A DNA stretch of 64,000 nt from assembly GCA_021791675.1 (NCBI GenBank), contig JAJYWE010000004.1, forward strand, positions 28,054 to 92,053. The letters run 5' to 3'. The position numbers and the translations under genes were made by a program. The notes beneath the pieces are model-generated. The model made no database searches, was not told where the DNA came from, and saw nothing but the letters and a program-made list of their open reading frames with translations. Positions within the stretch are counted from its first letter, which is position 1, and every line of letters starts with the position of its first letter. Below are positions 2,188 through 25,644 of the stretch, in pieces. The stretch comes from Actinomycetes bacterium. GTDB taxonomy: Bacteria > Actinomycetota > Acidimicrobiia > Acidimicrobiales > JAKAOS01.

Positions 2188-2191
2188 GGTG

Positions 2192-2389
2192 TCAGAGGGT
2201 GATGGAGTGGGCCTTGGCGATGATCAGGGTGACGAGGTAGCCGACGGCTGCCAGGGCGGCGGCGGCGAGCAGCGCGGTGACCAGGATGGTCTCGGTGGTG
2301 TAACCGGCCTCGTCGTGGCGGGCCTCGGCGAGACGGCCACGGATCACGCCGAGCAGGTGGCGGATCACGGCGAATGCTGCGGTGGGCAT
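2192..2389 (-). CDS. Flp-type small pilin-like membrane protein (resembles DUF4244 of actinobacterial Tad loci)
   Basis: Track ORF 2192..2467 trimmed to the internal ATG. The 65-aa product has DEAGYTTETILVTALLAAAALAAVGYLV and sits between tadC and the tadE-like genes, as in the M. tuberculosis Rv3654c-Rv3660c locus. Confidence 0.55.
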   Translation of the reverse strand: MPTAAFAVIRHLLGVIRGRLAEARHDEAGYTTETILVTALLAAAALAAVGYLVTLIIAKAHSITL

Positions 2390-2426
2390 GGTGTTCCTCC
2401 CTTGTGGGTCATAGGGTTTTTGTGGG

Positions 2427-5505: not shown

Positions 5506-6332
5506 CGCCTACCTGCCCGGGCCGGCGCCGAAGCAGCCTCGGTGGCGTGTCTCCTGGTGGCATCAGCGTCGCCGGCATCCTCGCCCGGCCAGCTCGACGG
5601 CTCTCCCGTGCTCGGCGGGGCACCAGCGCTGAGCCGGGCGCAGATCGCTTCGGCGAGGCTGCGCGCTCCGCGCAGCAACGCCAGACGCCCGAGCGCCCGG
5701 GGGTTGGCTGCCCCGCCGGCGAGGAGGGCGGCGCCGCCGGGGTCGTCGGCCAGCACGCCGAGCACCTCGACCTCCAACGCCTCGGCGACCTCGGCGCGCG
5801 GGTAGGCCCCGGCGCCGACCAGCACCACGCCGAGCTGGGCGGCTGCTGGGCGCAGGGCCTCGACCCGGGCGGCGAGGTGGTGCAACTCGGCGAGCACCGG
5901 ACGGGCGCACACGACCAGCAGCTCGCAGCTGGCAACCAGGCCCAGGGTGGCCGAGCGCGGGTCGAGGCGGCCGGCGTCGACGAGCACGTCACCGTCGACG
6001 TCGCAGAGCACGGCGCCGGTGGGTCCGAGCATGCCGAGCGCAGCCTGGGTCTGCTCAGCCGACGCCGGGGCGACCAGCACGGCCAGCCCGCCGGGCAGGT
6101 GCTGGACGTGGCGGGCGGCGAGGGCGCGGGTGGGCTGGTTGCGGGCGGCGGCGGCCAGGGTGAGCAGGCTCGGCTCGGCGGCCAGCCCGTAGCGGGCGGC
6201 GAGGTCCCCGCCGGCCGGGTCGGCCTCCACCAAGGTCACCTGGCGGCCCGCCGGCCACGCCGCGCCGAGCGCCACCGCGGTGGTGGTCACCCCCGGCGAG
6301 GCCTTCACCGAGGCCAGCGCCACCGCGCTCAC
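5502..6332 (-). CDS. ParA/MinD-like protein with degenerate P-loop (Ssd/TadZ-like)
   Basis: Track ORF 5502..6992 trimmed to GTG at 6332 (GTGA overlap with the stop at 6329; ATGA overlap with the tadA start). ASVKASPGVTTTAVALG replaces KGGxGKT, as in Ssd-type proteins of actinobacterial Tad loci. Confidence 0.65.
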   Translation of the reverse strand: MSAVALASVKASPGVTTTAVALGAAWPAGRQVTLVEADPAGGDLAARYGLAAEPSLLTLAAAARNQPTRALAARHVQHLPGGLAVLVAPASAEQTQAALGMLGPTGAVLCDVDGDVLVDAGRLDPRSATLGLVASCELLVVCARPVLAELHHLAARVEALRPAAAQLGVVLVGAGAYPRAEVAEALEVEVLGVLADDPGGAALLAGGAANPRALGRLALLRGARSLAEAICARLSAGAPPSTGEPSSWPGEDAGDADATRRHATEAASAPARAGRR

Positions 6333-7108
6333 GACCCTGCCCCCGACGACCCTGCCCCCGACGACACTGCCCCTGACGACGCTGTCCCCGACATGGGGAC
6401 GACGACCAGGCTGGCCTGGCCGCCGCCCGCGGCGTCGGCCAGGGCGGGGGCGTCGGCGAGGCGCACCTGGAGGCTGACCACGGTGTCGGTGCCCCCGTTG
6501 GCCCCAGGCGCCTGCACGCCGACCACCACCGCCGGGGTCGGCCCGAGCGGAACGATCCCACCCGTCGAGCCGGTCCCGGCACCCGAACCGGCACCTGTGG
6601 CGGTGGCGGGCGCGGTGACGACCAGGACGTGGTCGCCGGCGGCAACATCGGGCGGGAAGCCACCCGGTTTGAGCGCCACCGCCACCTCGGCCTGCCCGGC
6701 CGGCAGAGCCACCGGCGGCCCGAGATCCGCTGGGCTGAGCAGGCTGCCGGCGACAAGCGGCACCGCTGCGGCGCGCCCGACCACGCTGGCCTTCTCGCCT
6801 GCGGGCAGCGTCGCGACCCCCGGCGCGGAGACCTGGACCACGCCCAGGTCGGCGACGGTGATCACCCCGCCGGCGGGCAACGAGGAGCGCAGCTCGAGCA
6901 CCCCGGCGCGCCCACCGACTTGTATCGAGGTGGCGGCGAAACCCAAGGCGCAGCCGACCACCACCACGATCCCGATCCCCACCCGGGGCCACTGGCGGCG
7001 CCGTCTCGCCCCTCCCAGGCGCAACGCCCCATCCGGCCCTCCCGTAGTGGTGGCGGCCGGCGCCTCCTTGGTGCCGTTGGTGGAGGTGGGTGGCGAAAAG
7101 GTGGGCAA
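6329..7108 (-). CDS. CpaB/RcpC-like SAF-domain pilus assembly protein
   Basis: N-terminal RRRRQWPRVGIGIVVVVGCALGF anchor, then a SAF-like segment LPAGGVITVADLGVVQV. TTG at 7108 is preceded by AAAGGAG; the track start at 7258 is an alternative. Confidence 0.6.
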   Translation of the reverse strand: MPTFSPPTSTNGTKEAPAATTTGGPDGALRLGGARRRRQWPRVGIGIVVVVGCALGFAATSIQVGGRAGVLELRSSLPAGGVITVADLGVVQVSAPGVATLPAGEKASVVGRAAAVPLVAGSLLSPADLGPPVALPAGQAEVAVALKPGGFPPDVAAGDHVLVVTAPATATGAGSGAGTGSTGGIVPLGPTPAVVVGVQAPGANGGTDTVVSLQVRLADAPALADAAGGGQASLVVVPMSGTASSGAVSSGAGSSGAGS

Positions 7109-7145
7109 CGCTGGGGCTCCTTTCGATGCACTCGGCCGGATCGGC

Positions 7146-8093
7146 TCAGCCGGCCTGGCCGGGGGTGGTGTTGATCGCCTGCGCCTCGGCCACCGCCACC
7201 GACACCGCCGCCGGCGGCCCCGCGATGCGCCCGAGGCTTCCGCCCCCCGGCGCGCCATGCGCGGACCAGGTGACCTGCCAGTACACAGTGGCGCTGACCG
7301 GGAAGGTCCCCCCGGGCGCCCCGGCCGAGCTTCGGGTCCAGGTGTAGGAGCACGAGGTGCGCTGGGCGGCTGCGGGCGTGCCCGGCTGGTAGGCGGTGCC
7401 CGCCCCGGTACAGGTCACCTGGTGGCCGGCCAGGTCCCAGACCACCTCGGTCGGCGCCGCCCTCACCGTCGCCGACACCGGGCCGGCGCTCGCGCTGGCC
7501 GAGCGGGGCTGCCAGCCGGTCACCCACAGCCAGCTCGCCAGGCCGACCAGCTGGTCGGCGCTGGTCGGGGGGGCCATGTGGATCGACAGCGCCCCCAGCC
7601 CGAGATGCGACACGGCCTGGCGGGCCAACACCACCGGGTTCACCGCCGGCGCGGCCGGGGCGGCGGGCTTTCCGGCAGCCGGCGTCGGCACCCAGATCGG
7701 CGGCATCGGGTTGATCACCCCCGGCCCGGCGCAGATCGGGAACACCCACTGGCCGCCGCCGGGGCCGCCCGGGCCGAGCAAGCTCAACGTGACCGGCGGA
7801 GCCAGCTGGTAGCGGCAGCCGTAGGGGGCGTTCGGGTTCACCGGGCCACCACCGCTGCCACCACCTCCGCTGGTGTGGTCCATCACCGTGGCGGCCTGCC
7901 CGGCCAGCGGGGAGGAGGGCGGCAGCCACGCCTGGTAGCCGGCGCTGACGGTCACACCACCCGAACCGGTGGTAGCCGAGGTGGTGGTGTTCTGTCCCTC
8001 GGTCCCCGACGCCCAGGCAGGACCGGCCCATCCGAGGATGCAAAGGGCTGCGGCGAGCAGAGCAAGGACCGCTTTCAGTATCCCGGTGGGCAT
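7146..8093 (-). CDS. secreted hypothetical protein
   Basis: Signal peptide MPTGILKAVLALLAAALCILGWAGPAWA; Gly/Pro-rich region, then a Trp/Thr-rich beta-type C-terminal half. No family recognised. Confidence 0.55.
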   Translation of the reverse strand: MPTGILKAVLALLAAALCILGWAGPAWASGTEGQNTTTSATTGSGGVTVSAGYQAWLPPSSPLAGQAATVMDHTSGGGGSGGGPVNPNAPYGCRYQLAPPVTLSLLGPGGPGGGQWVFPICAGPGVINPMPPIWVPTPAAGKPAAPAAPAVNPVVLARQAVSHLGLGALSIHMAPPTSADQLVGLASWLWVTGWQPRSASASAGPVSATVRAAPTEVVWDLAGHQVTCTGAGTAYQPGTPAAAQRTSCSYTWTRSSAGAPGGTFPVSATVYWQVTWSAHGAPGGGSLGRIAGPPAAVSVAVAEAQAINTTPGQAG

Positions 8094-8773
8094 GATCCCT
8101 CCGTCACGTGCTGCTGGGCGACCTTCCAGATCCCCGGCGATACCTGTGCAAGCGTCGAGCGGATCCCGACGTGCTCCGGTGGGGTGACCGGGGGGACGGG
8201 CTTACCGGTCTTGGCGTAGATCAGCTCCGAGGCGTCATAGGCGCAGTCCAACACGACGGCCTGGTTGCCGTTGATGGAGGCGACGTGGGGGTGCAGGGTG
8301 ACCGGGCCGCGCCCCACGATGCCCTGTGCTTGGTCGGCGAGGAGGAAGCGGCGCACCGACTGCAGCTGCGCGCCGGTCATGGTCGCCGCCAGCGCGGGCA
8401 GGGCGGCATCTGCGGTGTGCTCGGCGGTCTCGAACGCGGCCTGTTCCGCCCGGTAGGCGGCGAGCACGCCCGCGGCCTGGGCGCTGATGGTGGTGGCGGG
8501 CGTCGCCGTCGTCGCCGCCGTCGTCGTCGAGGGCGCCGTAGACGGCGACGTGGCGGTGCTCGGGTGGCTGCCGCCGCCGCAGCCGGCTAGCGCGACGGCG
8601 AGCGCCCCGACGCCCGCTACCGTCACGGCCGTTCTTGTGGGTGTCGCCCCGCCACAAGCCGGCCCGCTCCGACCTGGGGCCGGCCGACACCGCCTGCGCT
8701 CGCCGGGGCGCTCCGCCCGCTTGACTGCGGTCCGGGCCTTGTCGATCAACACGGTGAACACAGCGTGAGCCAT
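8075..8773 (-). CDS. putative lipoprotein
   Basis: Lipobox ALAVALAGCGGGS followed by a Thr/Ala/Ser-rich linker and a globular C-terminus. Start uncertain (ATG 8773 or 8815). Confidence 0.5.
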   Translation of the reverse strand: MAHAVFTVLIDKARTAVKRAERPGERRRCRPAPGRSGPACGGATPTRTAVTVAGVGALAVALAGCGGGSHPSTATSPSTAPSTTTAATTATPATTISAQAAGVLAAYRAEQAAFETAEHTADAALPALAATMTGAQLQSVRRFLLADQAQGIVGRGPVTLHPHVASINGNQAVVLDCAYDASELIYAKTGKPVPPVTPPEHVGIRSTLAQVSPGIWKVAQQHVTEGSCPPGY

Positions 8774-8902
8774 GCGCCCAGGCTTGCCAACCACCCAGGT
8801 TGCAGCAAGGGGCAACCGCAGTAGCGCTCAGGTGCGACTCAGATCACACAACCCTCCCAGCCCTCGTCCCTCTGCAGCGCTCGGCGCCAGAACCGTTGGT
8901 GG

Positions 8903-9652
8903 TCAGCTGCCGTCCCATCCCTCGGCCCGCAGCGCCTCGGGGTCGACCAGCACGACCCCATGGCGGGTCTGTTCGACCAGGCCGTCGGTGTGCAGCTTTG
9001 CCAGGACCTTCCCGATCGTCTGGCGGACCGAGCCGACGGCGTCGGCCAGCTGCTGGTGGGTGACGGGGGCGAGCAGTTCCCCCGCGTGGCCTCCGGCCTC
9101 GACGTGGTCGGCCTGTTGCTCGGCGGCGAGGTCGAGCAGGTGGCGGGCGACTCGGCTGCGGAGGTCGCCGAAGGTGGCGCCGCGCACCTCGACGATCACC
9201 CGGTAGAGCCGGTCGAGCAGCTGACGGGCCAACGCCAGGGCCAGGGTCGGCTGGGAGGCGGCCACGTCGCGCATCGACGACAGCCCGAAGCGCCACAGAC
9301 GCGTGTCGGTGAACGCCTGGGCCGACACCTGGCTCGGCCCGTCGATGATCCCGGCAACGCCGATCAGCTCTCCGGAGCGTGCGTAGGCGAGGTTGACCTC
9401 CCGGCCCTCGGGGGTGGTGATGAACAGCCGCACCATCCCCGAGACCACCAAAGCCGGTCTCGGCTGGTCGCCGGCGCGGTAGAGGACCCGCCCGGCGGGC
9501 ACCTCGGCGCGCACTGCGTCCAACCTCAGGCGAGCCATCACCGCAGCGGGCAGCGTCGCCAGCTCGCTTGCTTGGAGTGCCGCGTCGAGCGCCAGGTCGA
9601 ACTCGTCGTCGGCGCCAAGCCCGTCCGTGCCGGCGGTGCTCACCGCTGACAA
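8903..9652 (-). CDS. Crp/Fnr-family transcriptional regulator
   Basis: cNMP-binding-like N-terminal domain (GRVLYRAGDQPRPALVVSGMVRLF) and C-terminal HTH (THQQLADAVGSVRQTIGKVLAKL). Confidence 0.85.
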   Translation of the reverse strand: MSAVSTAGTDGLGADDEFDLALDAALQASELATLPAAVMARLRLDAVRAEVPAGRVLYRAGDQPRPALVVSGMVRLFITTPEGREVNLAYARSGELIGVAGIIDGPSQVSAQAFTDTRLWRFGLSSMRDVAASQPTLALALARQLLDRLYRVIVEVRGATFGDLRSRVARHLLDLAAEQQADHVEAGGHAGELLAPVTHQQLADAVGSVRQTIGKVLAKLHTDGLVEQTRHGVVLVDPEALRAEGWDGS

Positions 9653-9908
9653 GCCCCCAGGCGCGACCGGTGGTCGCAGCTGGCGGCGGCCCGGCTGTTA
9701 GCCGGGGTCTGGGGTGCGCCCATCGGCAAGTCGGCTGGTCGAGGGCAAGCCACCTTCACGTCCTTCGGGTCAGGGGCGACTGTGGAGAGGCTTCGCCTCT
9801 ATCGGTATCGGCGGCTCGGGCGGCGACTTGACCCAGCGGCGTGGCCCCTCGCGCACCCCACGTCCGGTCGGGCAGGTCCGCCGGCCAGCCGGGGAGCCGG
9901 AGGTCTGC

Positions 9909-10883
9909 TCAGCCGTGCATGGCGGCGTCGAGGTAGGCGAGCATGGCCGCCCCCGCACCGGAGGCTCCGGGCGGGTAGAAGCCGATCTCGAGGTGCGGGC
10001 CGGTGGAGATCCCCACGATCCCGGCGCCGACCTCGCTGATCGCCTCGCCGGCGGCGACATGGGCGCCGACGCCGACCAGGTCGGGCCCGGCGTGGCCGTA
10101 GTAGACGGCCCGCCCGGCGAGAGGCCCGGCGGTGACGGCTAGGACCGGGGTGTTCGGCCCGAAGCCGGCGACGCCCTCGGCGACGATCACCCCCGGGCCG
10201 ATCGCGTACAGGGGGGTACCTGCGGGGGCGGCGTAGTCGACGCCCTGGTCGACGCTGGGGTGCACCAGGTAGCGGGCCGGCAGGGGCAGCGGCGCCGCCA
10301 CAGGTCCGGCCGACGGGGCCGCCTGGGCGTAGCTGGCAGCGAGGGCCATCACCTTGCGGACATACCAGCCGGCATGGTTGTAGCCCCACACCGCCCGGGG
10401 TATGTCCGCGCCTCCCCGGGCGCCGTTGGCGCAGAGGTCCCGCGCCGCGGCGTAGATGGCGTCGGCCGGGTCGTACGGGTTGGGCGGGTTGGCCCCACCG
10501 GGGGGGACAGGCTCGTCATATTGGGCGAAGGTCGAGGGCATGAACTGCATCGGCCCGAGCGCCCCGGCGACCGACGGCCCCTCGTTCCGGCCGTTACCGG
10601 ACTCGACGGTGCCGATCGCGGCGAGCACCGACCACGGCAGCCCGGGGCAGGTGGTGGCGGCTTGTTGGTAGAGGGCGAGGTAGCTGGCGGGGATCGCCGC
10701 GACCGCAGAGGCGCTGGGCGGCGGCGAGGCGCTGGGCGCCGGCGAGGTGCCACCGCCGATCCCGCCCCCACCGGTCAGGGCGCCGAGGGCGGCGGCGGAG
10801 GCGCCGGCGAGCAGCCCGACGACAAGGACCAAGCCGGCCACGGCGGCCGCGGCGAGGGTGGCGACACCAGGCCGTTCGGTCAC
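9909..10883 (-). CDS. VirB1-like cell-wall hydrolase (lytic transglycosylase + M23 peptidase domains)
   Basis: Track ORF 9909..11312 trimmed to GTG at 10883 (GTGA overlap). AIGTVESGNG...GPMQFMPSTF is an SLT motif; C-terminal DYAAPAGTPLYAIGPG...HLEIGF is M23-like. Confidence 0.8.
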   Translation of the reverse strand: MTERPGVATLAAAAVAGLVLVVGLLAGASAAALGALTGGGGIGGGTSPAPSASPPPSASAVAAIPASYLALYQQAATTCPGLPWSVLAAIGTVESGNGRNEGPSVAGALGPMQFMPSTFAQYDEPVPPGGANPPNPYDPADAIYAAARDLCANGARGGADIPRAVWGYNHAGWYVRKVMALAASYAQAAPSAGPVAAPLPLPARYLVHPSVDQGVDYAAPAGTPLYAIGPGVIVAEGVAGFGPNTPVLAVTAGPLAGRAVYYGHAGPDLVGVGAHVAAGEAISEVGAGIVGISTGPHLEIGFYPPGASGAGAAMLAYLDAAMHG

Positions 10884-11776
10884 GGCCGCCCATCGGAGGG
10901 CAGTCCCGGCCCTGGCAAGAACCCAGGCGGCCGGTCGCGGGGAATGGCGAGCTGGGCGAGGCGCAGCCGCGGCCCTCGGCTCTCCGCGGGCAGCCACACC
11001 GGGCCCGCCGGCGATGCGGCGCCGGTGGGGGCGGCGGTGGCGACGGGCACCGGCGGCCGGCCGAGCGCTCGGCGCAGGCTCGTCTCTCGTGCCGGGGTGG
11101 GCGCCCAGATCAGCATCGGGGTGGCGATCCTGGTGGCCGCGGCGAGCTCGGCGTAGCCGGCGAGCTTGGCCTCGACCCGGGTGGTGGTCTCGGTCCCCCG
11201 GTCGTACTCCAAGAAGAAGTCGACCTCGCTGTCGCCTTCGGCCCAGCGGCCGTAGCCGTCGGGGCGGACCACGCCACCCCATTGGGCGGCGCAGCGCCGC
11301 TCCGCCCACCACTCGACCAGCGCCGCGCCGGGGATGCGCCGGGCGGCGCCCGCCAGGGCGGCGAAGAAGCCGTTCACCCCGACGAGATGCGCCAGGAGGG
11401 GGCTGTGCGCCAGGGCGAGGGCCCGCTCGCGGCGGAAGCCGAGCTCGGAGGGTTCGACGCCGCGGGCGGCGGCGACGACCGCGGCGCCCATCTCATCGAG
11501 CACGTAGTGGAACGGTGCCGACCCGGCCGGGCGCTGCGGGCGGAAGCGGTCGAGCACTCGCAGCCGGTGCAGGATCACCAGGCGATGGCGTGCAGCTCCC
11601 TCGGAGTCGAAGCCGAGCTGGGCTATCTGGGCGGTGGTGAGCACCTGGTGGTCGAACAGCAGAGCGGCTATCCGCCGGTCCCTGTCGGTCAACCGTGAGG
11701 AGAGCATCCCGAGCAGATCGGCCGATGCCCGCACCCGAGGCGCAGACCCGGCCAACAGCGAAGCGGAAGAAGTCAC
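10880..11776 (-). CDS. replication-relaxation family protein (putative relaxase-type function)
   Basis: LTDRDRRIAALLFDHQVLTTAQIAQLGF...HRLVILHRLRVLDRFRP...DFFLEYDRGTE matches the actinobacterial replication-relaxation family as I recall it. Confidence 0.7.
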   Translation of the reverse strand: MTSSASLLAGSAPRVRASADLLGMLSSRLTDRDRRIAALLFDHQVLTTAQIAQLGFDSEGAARHRLVILHRLRVLDRFRPQRPAGSAPFHYVLDEMGAAVVAAARGVEPSELGFRRERALALAHSPLLAHLVGVNGFFAALAGAARRIPGAALVEWWAERRCAAQWGGVVRPDGYGRWAEGDSEVDFFLEYDRGTETTTRVEAKLAGYAELAAATRIATPMLIWAPTPARETSLRRALGRPPVPVATAAPTGAASPAGPVWLPAESRGPRLRLAQLAIPRDRPPGFLPGPGLPSDGRP

Positions 11777-18296: not shown

Positions 18297-18706
18297 CAGC
18301 CGACCACCGAGGTGAGGATCGACACCAGCAGCGGCGCCAGCGCGGCAAGGGCGTAGCCGATCGCCGCGGACTTCAGCGCCGTCTTGGCCCGCTCCACCTG
18401 CACCGGGTCGCCGCCGGCAGTGAGGTAGCGCAGCCCGCCGATGGTCAAGAACAGCGTGGCGACCGCGGCGAGCAGGCCGACCAGCCAGTTTCGCAGCGCG
18501 TCGATCACCCCGGTCAGGCTCGGTGGACCGGCGACAGCGAGGAAGCCGTGGCCGGTGGCCGCCGCGGCCGGGGCGGCCAAGACCAAGACCGCCAAGCCGG
18601 CCGCGCCCACGCTGGCGGCCAGCACGCTGAGGGCCCGTCGTATCAGCTTCTTTCGGGTCGGTGTCTTTCGAGTCGGTGTGTTTCGGGTCTCGGCTGGTGG
18701 GGTCAT
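18296..18706 (-). CDS. VirB2/TrbC-like conjugative pilin
   Basis: Trimmed to ATG at 18706. 136 aa: basic N-terminus, signal peptide AAPAAAATG, two hydrophobic helices (LVGLLAAVATLFLTIGG, AIGYALAALAPLLVSIL). Confidence 0.6.
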   Translation of the reverse strand: MTPPAETRNTPTRKTPTRKKLIRRALSVLAASVGAAGLAVLVLAAPAAAATGHGFLAVAGPPSLTGVIDALRNWLVGLLAAVATLFLTIGGLRYLTAGGDPVQVERAKTALKSAAIGYALAALAPLLVSILTSVVG

Positions 18707-19644
18707 GGGTTGCACCTCTGCTCGGCGGAAGGGACGGCAGGCCCGGTGCCGGGGACGGGGGCCGGCCGGCGACGGGCGACACCTCCTCGGGTGGCTCGCT
18801 TCGATAGGTGCGTCGGCGCAAACGACGACCCGCCGGCCGGGTCCCCGTCCCCGGTGGACCCGCACTCCTCCAATCCGCGTTTTGGCGCCAAACGCGACAC
18901 CTCCATTTCGAGATTTCTTTGCGCCAGCCAGGAGCGGACCCGGGTCTCGGCTCGCTGGCGCCGCCGGCGCAGGGTGTGGGCGTCGGTCCCGAGCTGAGCG
19001 GCGAGGGCGGGCAGGTAGATCCCGCCGAGGCGGGTGGCGCTGATCAGCTCGGCGTGGAACGCGCCGATAACCCCGGCGGCCACCGCCTCGGCGAGGACCA
19101 GGTCCGGGTGCCCCCACGGGCGGGGCGGGGCGGCGGAGAACACCGAGTGGCCCCGGCGGGCGGCGGCGGCCGCCTCGCGCCTGCAGGCGGCGCGCCCGCC
19201 GCGGTAGGCGGCCCAGCACAACCGACCTGGCAGGTGCCCGGCGGCGGTGTCGAGGTGGGCGAGGGCGTCGAGGAAGCCGGTGAGGATCTCGGCGTCGGCC
19301 TCTACGGTGTCGACGCCCGGGTAGTCGGCGACCAGCCGGGCGGCCACCCGTCGAAGCCCGGGCAGCGCCACCCCCGCCGCGCCGACCGTCCACGACGGCC
19401 CGGCGGAGCGGGACCGGCCGACCAGCTCGCCCCAGGCGGCCTCCCGGGCCGGGTAGCCGGTGGAGGGGTGCAGCAGGATCGACTTCAGCTCCCCGAGGGG
19501 GATCGTCCGGCGGGGCAGGCCGTGACCCAGAGCGGCCCCGTCGAGGAACAGGGGATCGGGGCCGTCGACCAGCATGGCGAACGCGGCGTCGAGGACCTCC
19601 AGCGGGCCGGGCTGCTCTGGCTCGCGGTGACGGTTGTGTGACAT
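18703..19644 (-). CDS. putative regulator with sigma-70 region-4-like HTH
   Basis: ATG at 19644. LPALAAQLGTDAHTLRRRRQRAETRVRSWL is HTH-like. The last 80 or so codons are low-quality and contain a 35-bp regulatory element. Confidence 0.5.
   Translation of the reverse strand: MSHNRHREPEQPGPLEVLDAAFAMLVDGPDPLFLDGAALGHGLPRRTIPLGELKSILLHPSTGYPAREAAWGELVGRSRSAGPSWTVGAAGVALPGLRRVAARLVADYPGVDTVEADAEILTGFLDALAHLDTAAGHLPGRLCWAAYRGGRAACRREAAAAARRGHSVFSAAPPRPWGHPDLVLAEAVAAGVIGAFHAELISATRLGGIYLPALAAQLGTDAHTLRRRRQRAETRVRSWLAQRNLEMEVSRLAPKRGLEECGSTGDGDPAGGSSFAPTHLSKRATRGGVARRRPAPVPGTGPAVPSAEQRCNP
18867..18901 (-). promoter_or_regulatory. 35-bp palindrome-containing element, copy 1 (upstream of the VirB2-like operon)
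   Basis: The reverse complement GGTGTCGCGTTTGGCGCCAAAACGCGGATTGGAGG matches 21267-21301 at 32/35. Core palindrome CGCGTTT-N6-AAACGCG. Confidence 0.6.
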
Positions 19645-19693: not shown

Positions 19694-19853
19694 GAACAGA
19701 CCATGAACACTCTCCCCGCCCGCCGTGCGTGTTCAAGATGTGTTCGCGGCCGCAGGGAGGCCTGCCGGTCGTGTTCGCGATCTGTTCACGGCGCCAGCGG
19801 GGCGCCTACCAGGTGTTCATACCGGCGCTGACGTGCGTGTTCACGATCTGTTC
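19694..19853. repeat. array of TGTTC/GAACA pentamers (7 direct, 2 inverted)
   Basis: TGTTC at 19730, 19741, 19772, 19783, 19814, 19838 and 19849; GAACA at 19694 and 19705. Three pairs are spaced 11 bp apart. Lies in the 514-bp gap upstream of the 19644 gene. Confidence 0.7.
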
Positions 19854-20158: not shown

Positions 20159-20593
20159 TCAGCTGTTGAGGTAGTCGCTGATCACCAGGCTGGTCAGCAC
20201 CGCAGCGCCCCGTCGCCGCGGCGATGCCGCCAACGGGAGGACCCGCACGCCCGCCGTCGCCAGGCGCTTCTCGATCCATGCCCGCTGGTTTGGGTCTCGG
20301 CAGAGGCGGTCGAGGTCGTCGACGACCACGATCTCGAACCAGCCGGCTGCGGCGTCGGCGAGCAGGCGGCCCAGGCCCGGCCGGTCGAGCCGGCCGGAGC
20401 CGACATCGGCGTAGCCGGCGACCAGGTGCCAGCCGGGCCGGGCGGCCACCACCGAGGCGAGGTGGGACTGGCGGCGCTCCAGGTTGGACGGGCGGTGCCG
20501 GTCCACGGCGACCACCCGGGTGTAGGCGGCGACCCCGACCGCCGGCCGCGGGTAGACGGCCTCCCCTTGCCCGCGCCCTGGGTTACCTGTCAC
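20159..20593 (-). CDS. stand-alone serine-recombinase catalytic-domain homologue lacking the nucleophile serine
   Basis: GTG at 20593 (GTGA overlap). VAAYTRVVAVD aligns with the YxRVST motif (the LSR at 23761 has VATYTRISTDE); DRPGLGRLLADAAAGWFEIVVVDDLDRLCR is classic resolvase. Confidence 0.65.
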   Translation of the reverse strand: MTGNPGRGQGEAVYPRPAVGVAAYTRVVAVDRHRPSNLERRQSHLASVVAARPGWHLVAGYADVGSGRLDRPGLGRLLADAAAGWFEIVVVDDLDRLCRDPNQRAWIEKRLATAGVRVLPLAASPRRRGAAVLTSLVISDYLNS

Positions 20594-21165
20594 CGTGGCT
20601 CGCCGGTCTGGGCGTGGCGGTAGCGGCGCGGCCCGGCCGTTGTCTGCACGGCGAGCCCGTCTTCGACCATGCGGGCGAGAGCGTTGCCGATCGCCCCGGC
20701 ACTGCGACCCAGCAGGGACCCAAGGCGGCTGGGAGTGAACTCCACCTCGGGCTCCGCGGCGAGGTGTGCGGCGACCAGCGCCCGTAGCTGCCCTCGCCCG
20801 AGGTGCCCCTCGACGCCCCGATCCCCGTCGGGGAGAACTGCGCTCCGGTCCGTTCGAGCGAGCTGTAGCTGATCTGCGGTGGTGAGCGCCGGTTGTGGCA
20901 GGGACCAGCGGTCGGCCAGCCGCCGGCCCCGTTCCCGCCCGCCGGGGCTGCGCGCCACCCGGTGGTCTGCGCCGAGGGCGGCGAGCGCCTTGGTCACCGT
21001 CGAGCGGCCCAGGCCTGTCGCCACCGCCACCTCCTCGGCGGTGGTGCCGGGACTGCCAGCGAGAGCGGCGAGCACCGCCTCGCTGGTAGCGGTGCCGCCC
21101 CCAGGGCGCCCATCCCGGGCGGCGCTGCTCGGGGAACGCTGCGGTGCTGCGGTGGTCACGGTCAT
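20590..21165 (-). CDS. double winged-helix (MarR-like) DNA-binding protein
   Basis: Two wHTH-like units: TTAEEVAVATGLGRSTVTKALAAL and SRLGSLLGRSAGAIGNALARMVEDGL. Confidence 0.6.
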   Translation of the reverse strand: MTVTTAAPQRSPSSAARDGRPGGGTATSEAVLAALAGSPGTTAEEVAVATGLGRSTVTKALAALGADHRVARSPGGRERGRRLADRWSLPQPALTTADQLQLARTDRSAVLPDGDRGVEGHLGRGQLRALVAAHLAAEPEVEFTPSRLGSLLGRSAGAIGNALARMVEDGLAVQTTAGPRRYRHAQTGEPR

Positions 21166-21266
21166 GGTTGTCCTCCCTCGGACGGTGGCTTCTTTCCTTC
21201 CGAGGACCTACCTCCACTGCGGCGGGCACCTCAAGGCCTGCCGCCGAAGAAGTTTCCCGAAGTCGT

Positions 21267-21301
21267 GGTGTCGCGTTTGGGCCGAAAACGCGGATTGGAG
21301 G
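21267..21301 (+). promoter_or_regulatory. 35-bp palindrome-containing element, copy 2 (35 nt upstream of methyltransferase 1)
   Basis: GGTGTCGCGTTTGGGCCGAAAACGCGGATTGGAGG. Same orientation relative to its downstream gene as copy 1. Confidence 0.6.
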
Positions 21302-21335
21302 GTGTCGGCGCAACCGATGGCCCAGGGCCCAGCCC

Positions 21336-22313
21336 ATGCCAATCTCCCCGTCTTCTCCGTCTCCTGTTCCCCCTCCGACCTCGACCGAGGACGAGGCGGT
21401 CCCGCTCACCGTGTGGCCGGTCGCCCAGGTCTCCGCGCAGCACCAGCGCGCCGGGCGCTACCTGCCCAGCTGCGCCGCCCATCCCGGCAAGATGATCCCC
21501 GCCCTCGCCCGGCGCATCATCGAGGCCTACTCGGCGCCCGGAGACCTGGTCCTCGACCCGATGGCAGGGGTCGGCACAACCCTCATCGAGGCCGCCGCGC
21601 TCGGCCGGCGCTGCGTCGGTGTCGAGCTCGAGGACCGCTGGGTGACCCTCGCCCGTGCCAACCTCGACCACGTCCTGCCCTCGCCAGCCCGATCGCTGGC
21701 CGAGGTGCGCCAGGGTGACGCCCGGTCCCTTCCGGGCCTGCTCGGCGACCTCGCCGGCCGGGTCGACCTGATCATCACCTCCCCGCCGTATGCCTGTGAC
21801 GCGGGGGTGATCGACAAGGGCGCATGGCTCGCGGGGGCGAGGCTGTGTGACCGGGAGAGCCTGAACTACTCGACCAGCCGCAACAATCTCGGCCACGCCC
21901 GAGGCGAGGCCTACCTCGCCGAGATGGCCCAGGTGTACGCCGGGTGCTGCACGGTGTTGCGCCCCGGCGGGCTGATGGTCACGGTGACCAAGAACATGCG
22001 CCGCAGCGGCCGCCTCGTCGACCTGGCAGGGATCACCGTGAGTCTCGCCCATGACGCCGGGTTCGCCTACCTCCAGCACGTGATCGCCCTGCTCGGCGCG
22101 GTCCGCGACAGCGAGCTGGTCGCACACCCGAGTTTCTGGCAGCTGCGCCAGACTCGCCTCGCCAGGGCGAACGGCCACCCGGTGCACCTCACCGTGCACG
22201 AGGACGTCCTGGTCTTCCAGACGCCGGCATGTCCCTCGACTTCAGCGCAACCTCACGATCAGCGTGCCGTCGCCGAGGCCGGGCCGGCCGAGGGAGGAGC
22301 GATCCGTGGCTGA
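21336..22313 (+). CDS. SAM-dependent amino-methyltransferase (SPPY motif), paralogue 1
   Basis: Motif I VLDPMAGVGTT and motif IV ITSPPY. The track start at 21144 overlaps the divergent gene, so it is trimmed to ATG at 21336. Confidence 0.8.
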   Translation: MPISPSSPSPVPPPTSTEDEAVPLTVWPVAQVSAQHQRAGRYLPSCAAHPGKMIPALARRIIEAYSAPGDLVLDPMAGVGTTLIEAAALGRRCVGVELEDRWVTLARANLDHVLPSPARSLAEVRQGDARSLPGLLGDLAGRVDLIITSPPYACDAGVIDKGAWLAGARLCDRESLNYSTSRNNLGHARGEAYLAEMAQVYAGCCTVLRPGGLMVTVTKNMRRSGRLVDLAGITVSLAHDAGFAYLQHVIALLGAVRDSELVAHPSFWQLRQTRLARANGHPVHLTVHEDVLVFQTPACPSTSAQPHDQRAVAEAGPAEGGAIRG

Positions 22314-23238
22314 GCCCACCCGCCGCTGCGAGCTGCCGCTGTCGGTGTGGCCGACCGCCCAGCAGACCTCCCGGACCCAGCGGACCGGGCGTTACCTGCC
22401 CGAGTCGACCGCCCATCCGGCCCGGATGCTGCCCGCCACCGCCCGGCGGGCCATCGAGGCCTACACCGCCCCCGGCGAAGTTGTGCTCGACCCGATGTGC
22501 GGGATCGGCACCACCCTGGTCGAAGCCATCCACCTCGGCCGCCAAGCGGTCGGCGTGGAGTACGAGCCCCGCTGGGCCGACCTGGCCAGAGCGAACCTGA
22601 TCGACGCAGAGACCGGCGGCGCCGCGGGCGACTGGCAGGTTCACACCGGCGACGCCCGTAGCCTCCACCACCTGATCGACACGGCGCTCGCCGGCCGGGT
22701 GGCGTTGGTGCTCACCTCCCCGCCCTACGGGTCCTCCCTGCACGGGCAGGTCCGGGCTCGCCCAGGCCAGGGGGTGGCCAAGGCGGACTGCGCTTACTCG
22801 GCCGACCGGGCCAACCTCGCCCACGTCGGCACCGACAAGCTCCTCGCCGGCTTCACCGACATCCTCGCCGCCTGCGTGCCCTTGCTGCGCCCCGGCGGGA
22901 TCGTGGCGGTCACCGCCCGCCCCTGGCGCAGCCGCGGCGCGCTGGTCGACCTGCCCTCCGCCGTGTTCGCCGCCGGTGAGGCCGCCGGACTGCTCCCCTA
23001 CGAACGCCTCGTCGCGCTGCTGGTCGGGCTGCGCGGCGACACCCTGGTGCCCCGGGCGAGCTTCTTCGCTCTCGACCAGGTCCGCAAAGCCCGCCGGCGG
23101 GGCTGCCCACTGCGGGTGATCGCCCACGAGGACGTCCTCGTGCTGCGCAAACCGTCAAAGCACATGGGTTCAGGGGGATCGAAGGAGCTTCGACGCGAGC
23201 CTGGATGCAGGGCGAGCACGTCGGTGGTGGCACCGTGA
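22264..23238 (+). CDS. SAM-dependent amino-methyltransferase (SPPY motif), paralogue 2
   Basis: VLDPMCGIGTT and LTSPPY; co-linear similarity to paralogue 1 throughout. An alternative GTG start at 22306 overlaps the upstream stop. Confidence 0.8.
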   Translation: MPSPRPGRPREERSVAEPTRRCELPLSVWPTAQQTSRTQRTGRYLPESTAHPARMLPATARRAIEAYTAPGEVVLDPMCGIGTTLVEAIHLGRQAVGVEYEPRWADLARANLIDAETGGAAGDWQVHTGDARSLHHLIDTALAGRVALVLTSPPYGSSLHGQVRARPGQGVAKADCAYSADRANLAHVGTDKLLAGFTDILAACVPLLRPGGIVAVTARPWRSRGALVDLPSAVFAAGEAAGLLPYERLVALLVGLRGDTLVPRASFFALDQVRKARRRGCPLRVIAHEDVLVLRKPSKHMGSGGSKELRREPGCRASTSVVAP

Positions 23239-23608: not shown

Positions 23609-23764
23609 ATGCGGCTCGCCACTGACACCCAGGTCGCCATACCCGACCGGTACCGATCGGTCGGAGTGGGCCGCCAAGGCCACCTCGTCGCCCGGCCAGC
23701 GCCGCCCGTCCCCGGCCCCGGTGGGGAGGAGCCGGCCGGCGCGGTCAGCGGGGTGGGGCGGTGA
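23609..23764 (+). CDS. 51-aa ORF translationally coupled to the serine recombinase
   Basis: GAGGAG lies 7 nt upstream of ATG at 23609; the stop forms a GTGA overlap with the recombinase GTG at 23761. Below the ORF-track size cutoff; own translation MRLATDTQVAIPDRYRSVGVGRQGHLV... Confidence 0.35.
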   Translation: MRLATDTQVAIPDRYRSVGVGRQGHLVARPAPPVPGPGGEEPAGAVSGVGR

Positions 23765-25644
23765 GAGTCGCCACCTACACCCGGATCTCCACCGACGAGG
23801 CCCACCAGCCCTACTCCCTCGAAGCCCAGGCCACCCGGCTCGGCTCCTACATCGCCAGCCAGGACGACTGGAGCTTGGTCCGCCAGTTCTCCGACCAGGC
23901 CTCCGGGGCGAGCACCGAGCGCCCCGAGCTCACCCGGGCACTCACCGAGGCCCGAGCCGGACGCTTCGACCTGCTCCTCGTCTACCGGGTGGACCGCTTC
24001 GCCCGCTCGGTGCGCGGCCTGGCCACCCTCCTCGAGCAACTGGACTCTGCTGGGGTGGCGTTCCGCTCGGCCACCGAACCCTTCGACACCGCCACTCCCG
24101 CCGGGCGGATGATGGTCCAGATGCTCGGGGTGTTCGCCGAGTTCGAACGCTCGACGATCATCGACCGGGTCATCGCCGGCATGGAACGCAAAGCCGCCCG
24201 AGGCGAATGGTGCGGAGGGTCCCGCCCCTACGGCTACGCCATCGACCCGGCCAGCGGCCACCTCGTCCCCGTGGAGACCGAGGAGCCTGTCGTCAAGGCC
24301 ATCTTCGACCGCTACACCCGCGGCCGGGCGGGCTTGAAGACCGTCGCCAACTGGCTCAACACCCGAGGCCATCGCACCAAGAGCGGCAGGCCCTGGAACC
24401 ACATGGCCGTGCTCACCGTGCTGAGAAACCGGGCCTACCTGGGTGAGGTGTACTTCCGGGACGCCTACCACCCCGCCCCACACCGCCCGCTGGTCGATCC
24501 CGACACCTTCGATCTCGCGCAGCGTATCCTCGCCACCCGGGGCGAGGACTACTCGCATCGGGCCGCCAACGCCAGCGACTACCTGCTCGCCGGGCTGCTC
24601 ACCTGCGCCAGCTGCGGCAAGCGTTTCGTCGGCACCGCCGCGCATGGCAACCGCTACCGGTACCGCTACTACACCTGCTTCTCCCGCCAGCGCTACGGCA
24701 CCGACACCTGCAACGCCGAACGCCTCCCCGCCGACGCCCTCGACACCGCAGTCCTCAACGCCCTCCTCGACACCTACACCCGAACCGACCTGTTCGAAAC
24801 AGCATTGGCCGCCGGGGCCGAACGCGCCGGGGCGGTACGGGCCCAACACCAAGCCGAGCTCGCCGTCGTCGACGCCGAGGCCGCCCGGACCGAGGAGGCC
24901 ATCGAGCGCTACCTGCTCGCCTTCGAAGCCGGCACCCTGCCCGAAGCCCAATGCGGGCAGCGCATCCGGACCCTCGGCGCCAAAGCTGCCGAGCTGCGCA
25001 CCCGGCGGGCCGAGCTGGTCGATCTGATCGCCGCCGCCAAGGAACCCGAGGCGCAGCGGGCCACCCTCGACGCCATCCGCGACCACCTCGCCGAGACGAT
25101 CCGAAGTGGCGAGGCCGCCACCAAGAAGGGTCTCCTGCAGAACCTCGTCCACGACATCCGCGTCGAAGGCCGCCACAACATCAAGCCGTACTTCCGCCTA
25201 CCCATCGGGCCCACGACGGTGACGAACCCTGACCCCTCCACGCAGGGCCAAAAGGTTCGTACACCGTCAGGACCGGTGCCCCCGGCAGGACTCGAACCTG
25301 CGACCCGCTGCTTAGAAGGCGTCATGCGGGGCATCCACGGACGTCCAGGACCATATTTGGCCTGCCCAAACAGATCTGGAGCGAGCCCCACGACACCCCC
25401 TCTTCGCCCCCGGTGGCTACCGCTGTGGCTACCACCAACTCGACTACCTTCTCGGCTCAAGTCGTCGACCCCCTCGAGGCGGCTCGGTGCCAGTTCTCCC
25501 ACTCGTCGAGCCACCGTCGCTCCGCGGAGCGGCACGCCGCGACCCCGCTCGCCAACCCAGGGGGCCATCCTTCTGCGTAGCCCTGAGGGTCCTGCTCTCG
25601 CCAGCGCTGATAGTTGGCATTGTGGGCCGCTGTTCGTCTCCTGA
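23761..25644 (+). CDS. large serine recombinase (functional 3' end uncertain: the frame reads through the att/tRNA fragment)
   Basis: VATYTRISTDE nucleophile motif, a recombinase domain, a zinc ribbon CASCGKRF...YYTCFSRQRYGTDTC and a coiled coil. No stop occurs before 25642-25644. Confidence 0.9.
   Translation: MRVATYTRISTDEAHQPYSLEAQATRLGSYIASQDDWSLVRQFSDQASGASTERPELTRALTEARAGRFDLLLVYRVDRFARSVRGLATLLEQLDSAGVAFRSATEPFDTATPAGRMMVQMLGVFAEFERSTIIDRVIAGMERKAARGEWCGGSRPYGYAIDPASGHLVPVETEEPVVKAIFDRYTRGRAGLKTVANWLNTRGHRTKSGRPWNHMAVLTVLRNRAYLGEVYFRDAYHPAPHRPLVDPDTFDLAQRILATRGEDYSHRAANASDYLLAGLLTCASCGKRFVGTAAHGNRYRYRYYTCFSRQRYGTDTCNAERLPADALDTAVLNALLDTYTRTDLFETALAAGAERAGAVRAQHQAELAVVDAEAARTEEAIERYLLAFEAGTLPEAQCGQRIRTLGAKAAELRTRRAELVDLIAAAKEPEAQRATLDAIRDHLAETIRSGEAATKKGLLQNLVHDIRVEGRHNIKPYFRLPIGPTTVTNPDPSTQGQKVRTPSGPVPPAGLEPATRCLEGVMRGIHGRPGPYLACPNRSGASPTTPPLRPRWLPLWLPPTRLPSRLKSSTPSRRLGASSPTRRATVAPRSGTPRPRSPTQGAILLRSPEGPALASADSWHCGPLFVS
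25278..25320 (-). repeat. distal att repeat: 43-bp copy of the tRNA-Arg 3' half
   Basis: Identical to 53231-53273. Lacks the 5' half of the tRNA, so it is not a functional tRNA. Confidence 0.9.
25413..25433 (+). promoter_or_regulatory. putative integrase arm-type sites, distal end
   Basis: GTGGCTACC at 25413 and 25425 (12-bp spacing); related CGACTACC at 25441. Confidence 0.45.

What the first reader, a model, noticed from the sequence alone, without database searches (positions are those of the whole stretch)
20159..21165. Nucleophile-less resolvase domain translationally coupled to a double winged-helix protein
Seen: the 144-aa product of 20159-20593 aligns with the serine-recombinase catalytic domain (DRPGLGRLLADAAAGWFEIVVVDDLDRLCR). 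At the nucleophile motif it has YTRVVAVD, where the bona fide LSR 3 kb away has YTRISTDE. It has no DNA-binding domain. It starts in a GTGA overlap with a protein made of two wHTH units.
Inference: a catalytically dead resolvase fold paired with a separate DNA binder could act as a regulator or recombination directionality/accessory factor for the neighbouring LSR, rather than as a recombinase.
Basis: partly seen in the sequence, partly recalled or inferred. Interest (0 to 1): 0.6.

Follow-up and report, generated by a model that had tools for sequence, protein, structure and literature searches.

The report
Serine-less resolvase domain in conjugative element
A small, conserved protein that copies only the cutting domain of a DNA recombinase, but lacks the cutting serine, is made together with a two-headed DNA-binding regulator at the head of the transfer genes of an actinobacterial conjugative element. 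It most likely works as a non-enzymatic partner in controlling that element.

Summary
ORF 20159-20593 (-) encodes a 144-aa protein that is only a serine-recombinase catalytic domain plus the first half of helix E. Val28 sits where the nucleophile Ser should be. Its GTG start overlaps (GTGA) the stop of a 191-aa protein with two winged-helix units.

It is neither a sequencing error nor a decaying fragment. The identical protein occurs in independent assemblies. It belongs to a family of more than 130 protein clusters, mostly 127-144 aa. On the clade of 136 that these form in my tree, none has Ser at that position. The R8, D36, R45 and R68 equivalents are mostly kept; the D67 and R71 equivalents are often lost.

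Every context I read lies in one type of actinobacterial conjugative element (T4SS, Replic_Relax relaxase, often a Tad pilus locus). The gene is either coupled to the double-wHTH gene, as here, or stands alone beside the Tad genes. In the one stand-alone element where I could see them, the wHTH gene and the LSR lie 11-14 kb away.

Downstream of the pair lies a conserved array of pentamer pairs at 11-bp spacing. This fits a two-headed binder.

The partnership with the wHTH regulator is inferred, not shown, and a link to the LSR is not excluded. I found no published description. This scan noted serine-less partners beside LSRs in other genomes.

The parts
20159..20593 (-). Serine-less resolvase-domain protein (144 aa). 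It consists of the catalytic-domain core plus the N-terminal half of helix E. Val28 sits at the nucleophile position. The R8, D36, R45, D67, R68 and R71 equivalents are present in this copy.
   Evidence: sequence and alignments. (AlphaFold2 model, pLDDT 69.5). (Foldseek best matches: IS607-like TnpA catalytic domain 6dgc and TP901-1 integrase 3bvp).
20590..21165 (-). Double winged-helix protein (191 aa). The two wHTH units have similar recognition helices (LGRSTVTKAL and LGRSAGAIGNAL) and are joined by a variable, disordered linker.
   Evidence: Pfam MarR_2, TrmB, HTH_24. (alignment of 30 homologues). (AlphaFold2, both units at pLDDT above 90). (Foldseek: tandem-WH proteins and MarR regulators).
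20590..20593 (-). GTGA start/stop overlap between the wHTH gene and the serine-less resolvase gene.
   Evidence: The same GTGA junction is present in L001, L002, L005, L009 and L048.
19694..19853 (-). Array of four GAACA-N6-GAACA sites. Read on the minus strand, three are direct (19853-19838, 19787-19772, 19745-19730) and one is inverted (19709-19694), 50 nt upstream of the ATG of the first T4SS-operon gene. Proposed operator for the double-wHTH protein.
   Evidence: five such pairs in the 64-kb window, four of them here. The sites are conserved in L001 and L009 while the surrounding intergenic DNA differs. Arrays in the same position but with a different word (CTACT/GTAG type, also 11-bp spaced) occur in L031, L032 and L048.
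18703..19644 (-). 313-aa protein of unknown family, the first gene of the T4SS operon. It is followed by the T4SS pilin, TrbL_3, PrgI, VirB4-like, VirD4-like and Replic_Relax genes.
   Evidence: Gene order. No Pfam, PHROG or PDB match.
21336..23238 (+). Two tandem DNA methyltransferase genes, transcribed divergently from the wHTH gene.
   Evidence: N6_N4_Mtase. Gene calls of 325 and 310 aa in near-identical contigs.
23761..25644 (+). Large serine recombinase with Resolvase, Recombinase and Zn_ribbon_recom domains and an intact nucleophile motif (YTRISTDE). It is the only recombinase seen for this element on the contig. The frame runs into a tRNA-like att fragment.
   Evidence: The composition of the last 324 nt is non-coding-like.

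Best explanation
The 144-aa protein is a non-catalytic descendant of a serine-recombinase catalytic domain. It is kept as an accessory gene of one family of actinobacterial conjugative elements.

In this element it is made in fixed proportion with the element's double winged-helix regulator, through the GTGA overlap. I propose that it acts as that regulator's protein-protein interaction subunit.

Proposed mechanism:
- Each wHTH protein binds one pentamer pair (GAACA-N6-GAACA, one helical turn apart) in the four-site array upstream of the first T4SS-operon gene.
- The resolvase-like subunit uses the dimer-forming surface that this fold provides in real recombinases. It bridges the bound regulators into a higher-order repressing or looping complex. 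This resembles resolvase dimers that act only architecturally at accessory sites.
- The complex would set whether the transfer operon is expressed, and possibly also the divergent methylase-LSR operon.

Shown: loss of the nucleophile, the fold, family-wide conservation, restriction to this element type, the conserved coupling and the conserved site array.

Inferred: that the wHTH protein binds the array, that the two proteins interact, and that the outcome is transcriptional control.
For: - Catalytically dead, and anciently so. With the tree rooted on the window's LSR, the short serine-less proteins form a clade of 136 tips (support 0.898) with no Ser at the nucleophile column: E 75, A 23, V 9, G 7 and others.
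- The active site erodes unevenly. R8-eq is kept in 102 of 133, D36-eq in 131, R45-eq in 120 and R68-eq in 123. D67-eq is kept in only 41 and R71-eq in only 36.
- Under constraint. Length and motifs are conserved across 55-94% identity. dN/dS between the window and L001 is 0.49, like its neighbours at 0.41 and 0.45.
- Coupling to the wHTH gene. The GTGA overlap recurs in L001, L009 and L048, which lie on both sides of the deepest split in my family tree. Eleven member pairs share the same longest-contig length.
- The wHTH gene holds the same position, at the head of the T4SS operon and divergent from the methylases and LSR, even in elements where the resolvase-like gene is elsewhere.
- The site array fits a two-headed binder. 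It has an 11-bp internal period, four copies clustered here out of five in 64 kb, and is conserved in L001 and L009. Diverged elements have an array with a different word in the same place, as expected if operator and regulator co-vary.
- The tail aligns with the first half of helix E. From knowledge of gamma-delta/Tn3 resolvase structures, that part packs in the dimer. The protein stops before the part that forms the tetramer interface and contacts DNA.
Against: - No interaction has been tested. I could not co-fold two chains.
- In most family members I looked at, the gene stands alone next to the Tad pilus genes, in either orientation; on G401:C63, the one such element where I could locate the wHTH gene, it is about 11 kb away. 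Physical coupling is therefore not required for function, and the partner could be something else.
- Retention of the phosphate-binding arginines (R8, R45, R68 equivalents) is not explained by a pure bridging role.
- The AlphaFold2 model is only moderate (pLDDT 69.5).
- dN/dS between the window and L009 is 0.93, although L009 looks like a decaying element.
- The array could be an oriT or a replication-type iteron set rather than an operator.
Confidence: 0.4

Rival explanations
1. LSR modulator. The serine-less domain pairs with the catalytic domain of the element's large serine recombinase as a decoy subunit. Because it lacks the nucleophile and the second half of helix E, mixed dimers could not form an active tetramer. 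The protein would therefore hold integration or excision in check, or bias its direction, like a recombination directionality factor of a new kind.
For: - It is 37% identical to its own LSR's catalytic domain, and its nearest serine-bearing relatives are LSR-type domains.
- An LSR is present in the same element in both arrangements: the window, L001, L005, G401:C63 and G401:C131.
- The LSR is the only recombinase seen for this element on the contig.
- Earlier notes of this scan describe serine-less catalytic-domain genes directly beside LSRs in other genomes. These are unverified leads.
Against: - In the elements I read it is never adjacent to the LSR. It lies 3 kb away in a divergent operon here and about 14.5 kb away on G401:C63.
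- Where it is coupled to a gene, that gene is the wHTH gene.
- From my own knowledge, the described directionality factors of large serine integrases act on the C-terminal DNA-binding and coiled-coil region, not on the catalytic domain.
- The helix-E part is only loosely similar to the LSR's.
Confidence: 0.27
2. DNA-processing accessory of conjugation. The protein keeps a phosphate-binding pocket and binds DNA or a nicked intermediate at oriT, or at an iteron-type origin lying in the 514-bp gap. It helps the relaxase or the replication of the excised element rather than controlling transcription.
For: - The arginines that hold the scissile phosphate in real recombinases are retained.
- A conserved basic RRR motif precedes the terminal helix.
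- In the stand-alone arrangement the gene lies near the relaxase and cell-wall hydrolase genes.
- Two-winged-helix proteins binding direct repeats as monomers and inverted repeats as dimers is the logic of iteron plasmids (from my own knowledge).
Against: - Foldseek did not place the wHTH protein near iteron Rep proteins.
- Site spacings of 66, 42 and 36 bp are irregular.
- No oriT evidence was obtained.
Confidence: 0.13
3. Still an enzyme. The protein uses another nucleophile, for example the invariant Tyr24, or works as a recombinase only together with the wHTH protein as a split enzyme.
For: - Tyr24 and Tyr61 are invariant across the wider family.
- This copy keeps all the other catalytic residues.
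- The gene order, DNA binder first and catalytic domain second, mimics IS607-type transposases. IS607 TnpA is the best NCBIfam and Foldseek match.
Against: - Tyr24 corresponds to a tyrosine conserved in all serine recombinases that is not the nucleophile (from my own knowledge).
- D67-eq and R71-eq are lost in most members.
- The second half of helix E, needed for the rotating tetramer, is absent.
- The wider family is usually not next to any DNA-binding gene.
Confidence: 0.04
4. Non-functional remnant of a duplicated recombinase gene.
For: - dN/dS between the window and L009 is 0.93.
- Truncated copies exist in decayed elements (L003 and L004, 96 aa).
Against: - There are more than 130 clusters of constant length and motif pattern, with no frameshifts.
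- The start overlap is conserved.
- Codon-position GC is coding-like.
- dN/dS of 0.49 equals that of neighbouring genes.
- The clade has 0.898 support and spans deep divergence.
Confidence: 0.03

Closest known systems
Catalytic (N-terminal) domain of large serine recombinases, e.g. TP901-1 integrase (PDB 3bvp) and the element's own LSR
   Same: Same fold and motif order: YxR..., RPGL..LL and vvvDxlDRLxR. The tail is homologous to the start of helix E.
   Different: There is no nucleophile serine. The recombinase domain, zinc ribbon and coiled coil are absent, and the protein ends halfway through helix E. Across the family the D67 and R71 equivalents are often lost.
IS607-family transposases (ISC1926 TnpA, PDB 6dgc; NCBIfam NF033518)
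   Same: Best Foldseek match and best NCBIfam match. The catalytic domain is C-terminal to a winged-helix DNA binder and ends soon after a short helix E. The gene order wHTH then catalytic domain mimics this layout.
   Different: Here there are two separate polypeptides. The binder is a double MarR/TrmB-like wHTH, not a MerR-like domain. The serine is absent. The NCBIfam score of 26 bits is far below the 110-bit cut-off. Most family members have no adjacent DNA-binding gene.
Resolvase dimers at accessory sites II and III of Tn3/gamma-delta res (architectural, non-cleaving use of the same protein; cf. PMC9943657)
   Same: A serine-recombinase catalytic domain used for protein-protein contacts that organise several DNA sites without cutting. 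This is the working model proposed here.
   Different: There the same active enzyme plays both roles and carries its own HTH. Here the protein is a dedicated dead subunit and DNA binding would be supplied by another protein. This is an analogy only; nothing was tested.
Recombination directionality factors of large serine integrases (phiC31 gp3, Bxb1 gp47, SPbeta SprB)
   Same: Small accessory proteins encoded by the same mobile element as an LSR.
   Different: From my own knowledge, none of these has a resolvase fold, and they act on the integrase's C-terminal region. The present gene is not adjacent to the LSR in the elements I read.
Serine-less catalytic-domain genes next to LSRs noted earlier in this scan (e1-1566995, e1-1130496, e1-1084400)
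   Same: The same idea: a catalytic-domain-only paralogue, without the serine, on an element that has an LSR.
   Different: Those sit directly upstream of the LSR. They share no detectable word-level similarity with this protein. They are unverified AI notes. Here the coupling is to a wHTH regulator or to the Tad module.

Membership tests
Serine recombinases (resolvase/invertase/LSR; Pfam PF00239 as a functional enzyme family) | Catalytic-domain fold and sequence match | tested here: met
   PF00239 at E=4.8e-13 and 49.9 bits, against a cut-off of 23.3. The top 41 Foldseek PDB matches (16 of them at E <= 0.001) are all serine-recombinase catalytic domains or close structural homologues.
Serine recombinases (resolvase/invertase/LSR; Pfam PF00239 as a functional enzyme family) | Nucleophilic serine in the YxRVSTxxQ motif | tested here: not met
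   Val28 aligns with the serine of the window's LSR and of TP901-1 integrase. None of the 136 family-clade members has Ser there.
Serine recombinases (resolvase/invertase/LSR; Pfam PF00239 as a functional enzyme family) | Full helix E (tetramer interface, DNA contact) and an attached DNA-binding domain | tested here: not met
   The Pfam match stops at profile position 99 of 145. Only 23 residues follow, and no other domain is present.
Serine recombinases (resolvase/invertase/LSR; Pfam PF00239 as a functional enzyme family) | Remaining active-site residues (R8, D36, R45, D67, R68, R71 equivalents) | tested here: inconclusive
   All are present in this copy (R26, D63, R71, D95, R96, R99). Across the family D67-eq is kept in 41 of 133 and R71-eq in 36 of 133.
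IS607-family transposase (NCBIfam NF033518) | Score above the curated cut-off, with a MerR-like N-terminal domain fused to the catalytic domain | tested here: not met
   26.4 bits against a cut-off of 110. The match covers the catalytic part only, and the upstream gene is a separate MarR/TrmB-like double wHTH.
MarR/TrmB-type winged-helix regulators (for the partner protein) | Winged helix-turn-helix fold | tested here: met
   MarR_2 at E=6.5e-11 (42.7 bits, cut-off 27). Two wHTH units are modelled at pLDDT above 90.
MarR/TrmB-type winged-helix regulators (for the partner protein) | One wHTH per chain with a helical dimerisation domain (classical MarR architecture) | tested here: not met
   Two wHTH units lie in one chain, joined by a disordered linker. 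No MarR-type dimerisation helices are present.
Recombination directionality factor of a large serine integrase | Changes the direction of the LSR reaction and binds the integrase | not testable with these tools
   This needs in vitro recombination or binding assays. The only genomic evidence is co-residence in the same element.

The most novel reading that the evidence does not exclude
The serine-less resolvase domain and the double-wHTH protein form a split, dead 'recombinase-like' complex. It reads a multi-site array and also docks onto the element's large serine recombinase. In this way it would couple the decision to express the conjugation machinery directly to the decision to excise. This would be a new class of control factor for serine integrases and for conjugative-element activation, built from a pseudo-enzyme copy of the integrase's own catalytic domain.
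Probability: 0.15. Interest if true: 0.8.

Novelty: new variant of a known kind. Interest (0 to 1): 0.55.

Why it matters
- Function of an unstudied family. Serine recombinases are studied as enzymes. A whole family that keeps only the catalytic-domain fold, has lost the nucleophile for a long evolutionary time and is retained by one lineage of conjugative elements implies a non-enzymatic job for this fold. I found no description of such a job.
- Control of poorly known elements. If the protein controls transfer-gene expression or the element's integrase, it is a handle on how these actinobacterial T4SS/Tad elements decide to move.
- Possible tools. It could also provide a natural inhibitor or modulator for serine integrases, which are used as genome-engineering tools.
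- Annotation. Genes of this family are currently labelled 'recombinase family protein' or 'DNA invertase Pin-like', which is misleading because they cannot be recombinases of the usual kind.

Tried and rejected
- Sequencing error or single-base slip restoring Ser: rejected. The same protein occurs on contigs from several samples, Val28 (GTC) is two changes from any Ser codon, and the whole family lacks Ser.
- Decaying fragment: rejected on conservation. Clearly decayed copies do exist (L003 and L004, 96 aa; the L009 element).
- Recent duplicate of the neighbouring LSR's N-terminus: rejected. Identity is only 37%, and the LSR falls outside the family clade.
- Wider distribution in genomes: no other full-length member in 400 genomes of the class or 400 of the phylum. 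The genome-contig scan returned only an unrelated Bacillota hit.
- Specific curated family: none. Pfam gives PF00239 only (21 of 22 members). NCBIfam hits are far below cut-off. PADLOC gives nothing for the resolvase-like protein.
- Promoter, terminator and Rfam scans of the region gave nothing usable.
- Identity of the 313-aa first operon gene: no Pfam, PHROG or PDB match.
- Literature: four full-text searches found no paper on serine-less, catalytic-domain-only resolvase proteins. Ghinet et al. 2011 (PMC3218068) does not mention them.
- Walking upstream from L024 failed because the exact product was not on record.
I did not build an artificial fusion.

Full report
**1.

The minus-strand ORF 20159-20593 gives a 144-aa protein. 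Its only family match is the serine-recombinase catalytic domain: PF00239, E=4.8e-13, residues 21-121 on profile positions 1-99 of 145.

- A gapless alignment with the window's own large serine recombinase (LSR, 23761-25644) shows 37% identity over residues 21-116. It places YTRVVAVD opposite YTRISTDE, so Val28 replaces the nucleophile.
- A family profile aligned to TP901-1 integrase (3bvp) puts that enzyme's nucleophile serine on the same column.
- After the last core strand only 23 residues remain. AlphaFold2 (mean pLDDT 69.5) models the usual strand-helix core and one terminal helix.
- The top 41 Foldseek PDB matches are all serine-recombinase catalytic domains or close structural homologues, led by the IS607-like TnpA domain 6dgc and by 3bvp.
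- By alignment the tail (SPRRRGAAVLTSLVISDYL) corresponds to the first half of helix E. It stops just before the ExER stretch of real recombinases. The meaning of that stretch comes from general knowledge of gamma-delta/Tn3 resolvase.
- The GTG start overlaps the TGA of the upstream gene 20590-21165.
- That upstream gene's 191-aa product has two winged-helix units. Pfam finds them at residues 27-75 and 129-179. AlphaFold2 models residues 23-88 and 126-184 at pLDDT above 90, with a disordered linker.
- Foldseek finds tandem winged-helix proteins and MarR regulators, nothing more specific.
- Codon-position GC (0.79/0.55/0.91) is that of a real gene in this 72% GC genome.

**2. It is neither an error nor a wreck**

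The identical protein is encoded on contigs from several independent samples. Val28 is GTC, two changes away from any serine codon.

A first search found 24 relatives, mostly exactly 144 aa and 55-94% identical. All have A or V at that position, and all share a conserved C-terminal helix.

A profile search of 1.84 billion representatives, followed by a second word-indexed search, widened this to a family of mostly 127-144-aa proteins. Of 133 short full-length proteins in that census, only two have Ser at the nucleophile column. Both look like truncated true recombinases. The rest have E (71), A (25), V (10), G (7) and other residues.

Other active-site residues erode unevenly:

| Residue equivalent | Kept in (of 133) |
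|---|---|
| R8 | 102 |
| D36 | 131 |
| R45 | 120 |
| R68 | 123 |
| D67 | 41 |
| R71 | 36 |

In a FastTree of 277 domains rooted on the window's LSR, the serine-less short proteins form one clade of 136 tips (support 0.898) with no serine at that column. The LSR lies outside it. The loss is therefore old.

Nei-Gojobori dN/dS between the window and L001 is 0.49. This is close to the wHTH gene (0.41) and the next gene (0.45). The value against L009 is 0.93. L009 has lost its LSR and has shortened methylase and pilin genes, so it looks like a decaying element.

**3. Where the gene lives**

Every context I could read is the same kind of actinobacterial conjugative element. Its modules are: T4SS pilin, TrbL_3, PrgI, a VirB4-like ATPase, a DUF8128/VirD4-like coupling protein, a Replic_Relax relaxase, a cell-wall hydrolase and usually a Tad pilus locus. 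Source names point to Acidimicrobiales, other Actinomycetota and one Dormibacteraceae MAG.

I found no other full-length member in 400 sampled genomes of the class or 400 of the phylum.

Two arrangements exist:

- **(a) Coupled, as in the window.** LSR, methylase and methylase lie on one strand. Divergently lie the wHTH gene, the serine-less gene with a GTGA overlap, a gap of roughly 360-590 bp, the 313-aa gene and the T4SS operon. I saw this in L001, L005, L006, L009 and L048. Eleven protein pairs also share the same longest-contig length.
- **(b) Stand-alone.** The serine-less gene stands alone, in either orientation, at the edge of the Tad locus next to the prepilin-peptidase gene. I saw this in L024, L025 and L049, and in L023 with cargo genes between.

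In an element of type (b) (G401:C63) the wHTH gene and the LSR are still present, in exactly the positions they hold in the window. They lie 11 and 14.5 kb from the serine-less gene.

All three genes therefore belong to the element family. The serine-less gene is never beside the LSR in the elements I read, and when it is coupled to a gene, that gene is the wHTH gene.

The two coupled groups I could place (the 22-tip clade containing the window's protein, and the 6-tip P0024 group) fall on opposite sides of the deepest split of the family tree. This hints that the coupling is ancestral or arose twice. The tree rests on 114 columns, so this is weak.

**4. A likely target site**

In the 514-bp gap below the pair lie four GAACA-N6-GAACA units. 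In operon orientation three are direct and one is inverted, the last 50 nt before the ATG of the 313-aa gene.

- Only five such pairs exist in the 64-kb window.
- The units are conserved in L001 and L009, while the surrounding intergenic DNA has diverged.
- In the more distant elements (L031, L032, L048) the same gap carries several direct and inverted copies of a different unit built on CTACT/GTAG words, again with an 11-bp period.
- Their wHTH proteins are only 44-51% identical to the window's.

A protein with two similar winged-helix heads (recognition helices LGRSTVTKAL and LGRSAGAIGNAL) is a natural reader of two identical pentamers one helical turn apart. That the wHTH protein binds these sites is an inference from this fit and from the co-variation.

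**5. How it most likely works**

My best reading (about 0.4) is that the serine-less domain is the protein-protein interaction subunit of the wHTH regulator. It is made in step with the regulator through the start/stop overlap. It would use the dimer-forming surface of the resolvase fold to tie wHTH proteins bound at several sites into a repressing or looping complex. That complex would control the T4SS operon and perhaps the divergent methylase-LSR operon. The nearest known analogy is the purely architectural role of resolvase dimers at the accessory sites of res (cf. PMC9943657).

Rivals:

- **LSR decoy (about 0.27).** The protein docks on the LSR's catalytic domain as a decoy subunit that cannot proceed to an active tetramer. 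Homology, co-residence with an LSR, and earlier unverified notes of this scan on serine-less genes directly beside LSRs elsewhere speak for it. The lack of adjacency in this family speaks against it.
- **Conjugation accessory (about 0.13).** The retained phosphate-binding arginines and the conserved RRR motif before the last helix keep open a DNA-end or oriT/iteron accessory role.
- **Residual catalysis (0.04) and a dead remnant (0.03)** are unlikely, for the reasons in section 2.

**6. Comparison with known families**

The protein passes the fold test for serine recombinases. It fails the defining tests of nucleophile, full helix E and DNA-binding domain, so it should not be annotated as a recombinase.

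It is not an IS607 transposase: it scores 26 bits against a cut-off of 110. The order 'DNA binder, then catalytic domain ending in a short helix E' does resemble that family.

From my own knowledge, none of the described directionality factors of serine integrases has this fold.

Four full-text literature searches and the actinobacterial ICE survey PMC3218068 gave no description of such proteins.

**7. Limits**

- No interaction, binding or expression data exist.
- Most family members come from short metagenomic contigs.
- Gene contexts were read for about a dozen elements only.

Noticed in passing
window 25200-25644; L001 5457-5600: The LSR reading frame runs into a sequence that translates as GLEPATRCLEG, the antisense of a tRNA 3' end. 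It continues with non-coding-like composition (GC3 0.60). The 52%-identical LSR of L001 ends in the same GLEPLTPCLQ motif. This LSR lineage therefore appears to sit flush against a tRNA-type attachment site, which is rare for serine integrases (compare PMC3218068).
   Followed up: partly
window 18852-18913 and 21255-21316: A 62-nt element, 77% complementary between the two copies, lies in the same orientation ahead of the T4SS pilin gene and ahead of the first methyltransferase gene. It could be a shared promoter or leader for the two divergent operons.
   Followed up: no
window 1690-11776; L024, L025, L049: This element family joins a VirB4/VirD4 T4SS and a Replic_Relax relaxase to a full Tad pilus locus (CpaF-like ATPase, TadB/C-like, TadE, SAF-domain protein; in relatives also a prepilin peptidase and a BTAD/LysM protein). 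This suggests Tad pili are part of the conjugation apparatus.
   Followed up: partly
window 18703-19644: The 313-aa first gene of the T4SS operon is conserved in all the elements but has no Pfam, PHROG or PDB match. Its C-terminal part contains a conserved RRRRQRAE stretch.
   Followed up: partly
proteins P0040, P0054, P0056, P0065, P0070, P0072, P0174 (representative library): These proteins of 1,100-1,330 aa carry two resolvase domains. The first domain often lacks the serine (for example YCRLIVINE, YCRVSVVSS), while the second keeps YCRVSTxxE. This is another apparent pairing of a dead and a live recombinase domain, here within one chain.
   Followed up: no
G401 (genome of L025): One 4.2-Mb genome holds five full-length serine-less resolvase genes, four double-wHTH genes and several LSRs. 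It therefore carries multiple copies of this element family.
   Followed up: partly
L009 5283-12232: This near relative of the window's element lacks the LSR and has shortened methylase and pilin genes. It also has substitutions at otherwise conserved positions of the serine-less protein (W85R, L94H, G129D, Y141C). It looks like an element in decay.
   Followed up: partly
L048 205-603: In the P0024 group the coupled DNA-binding protein is only 132 aa. The first unit has lost its beta-wing and the linker, giving a compact two-HTH protein.
   Followed up: no
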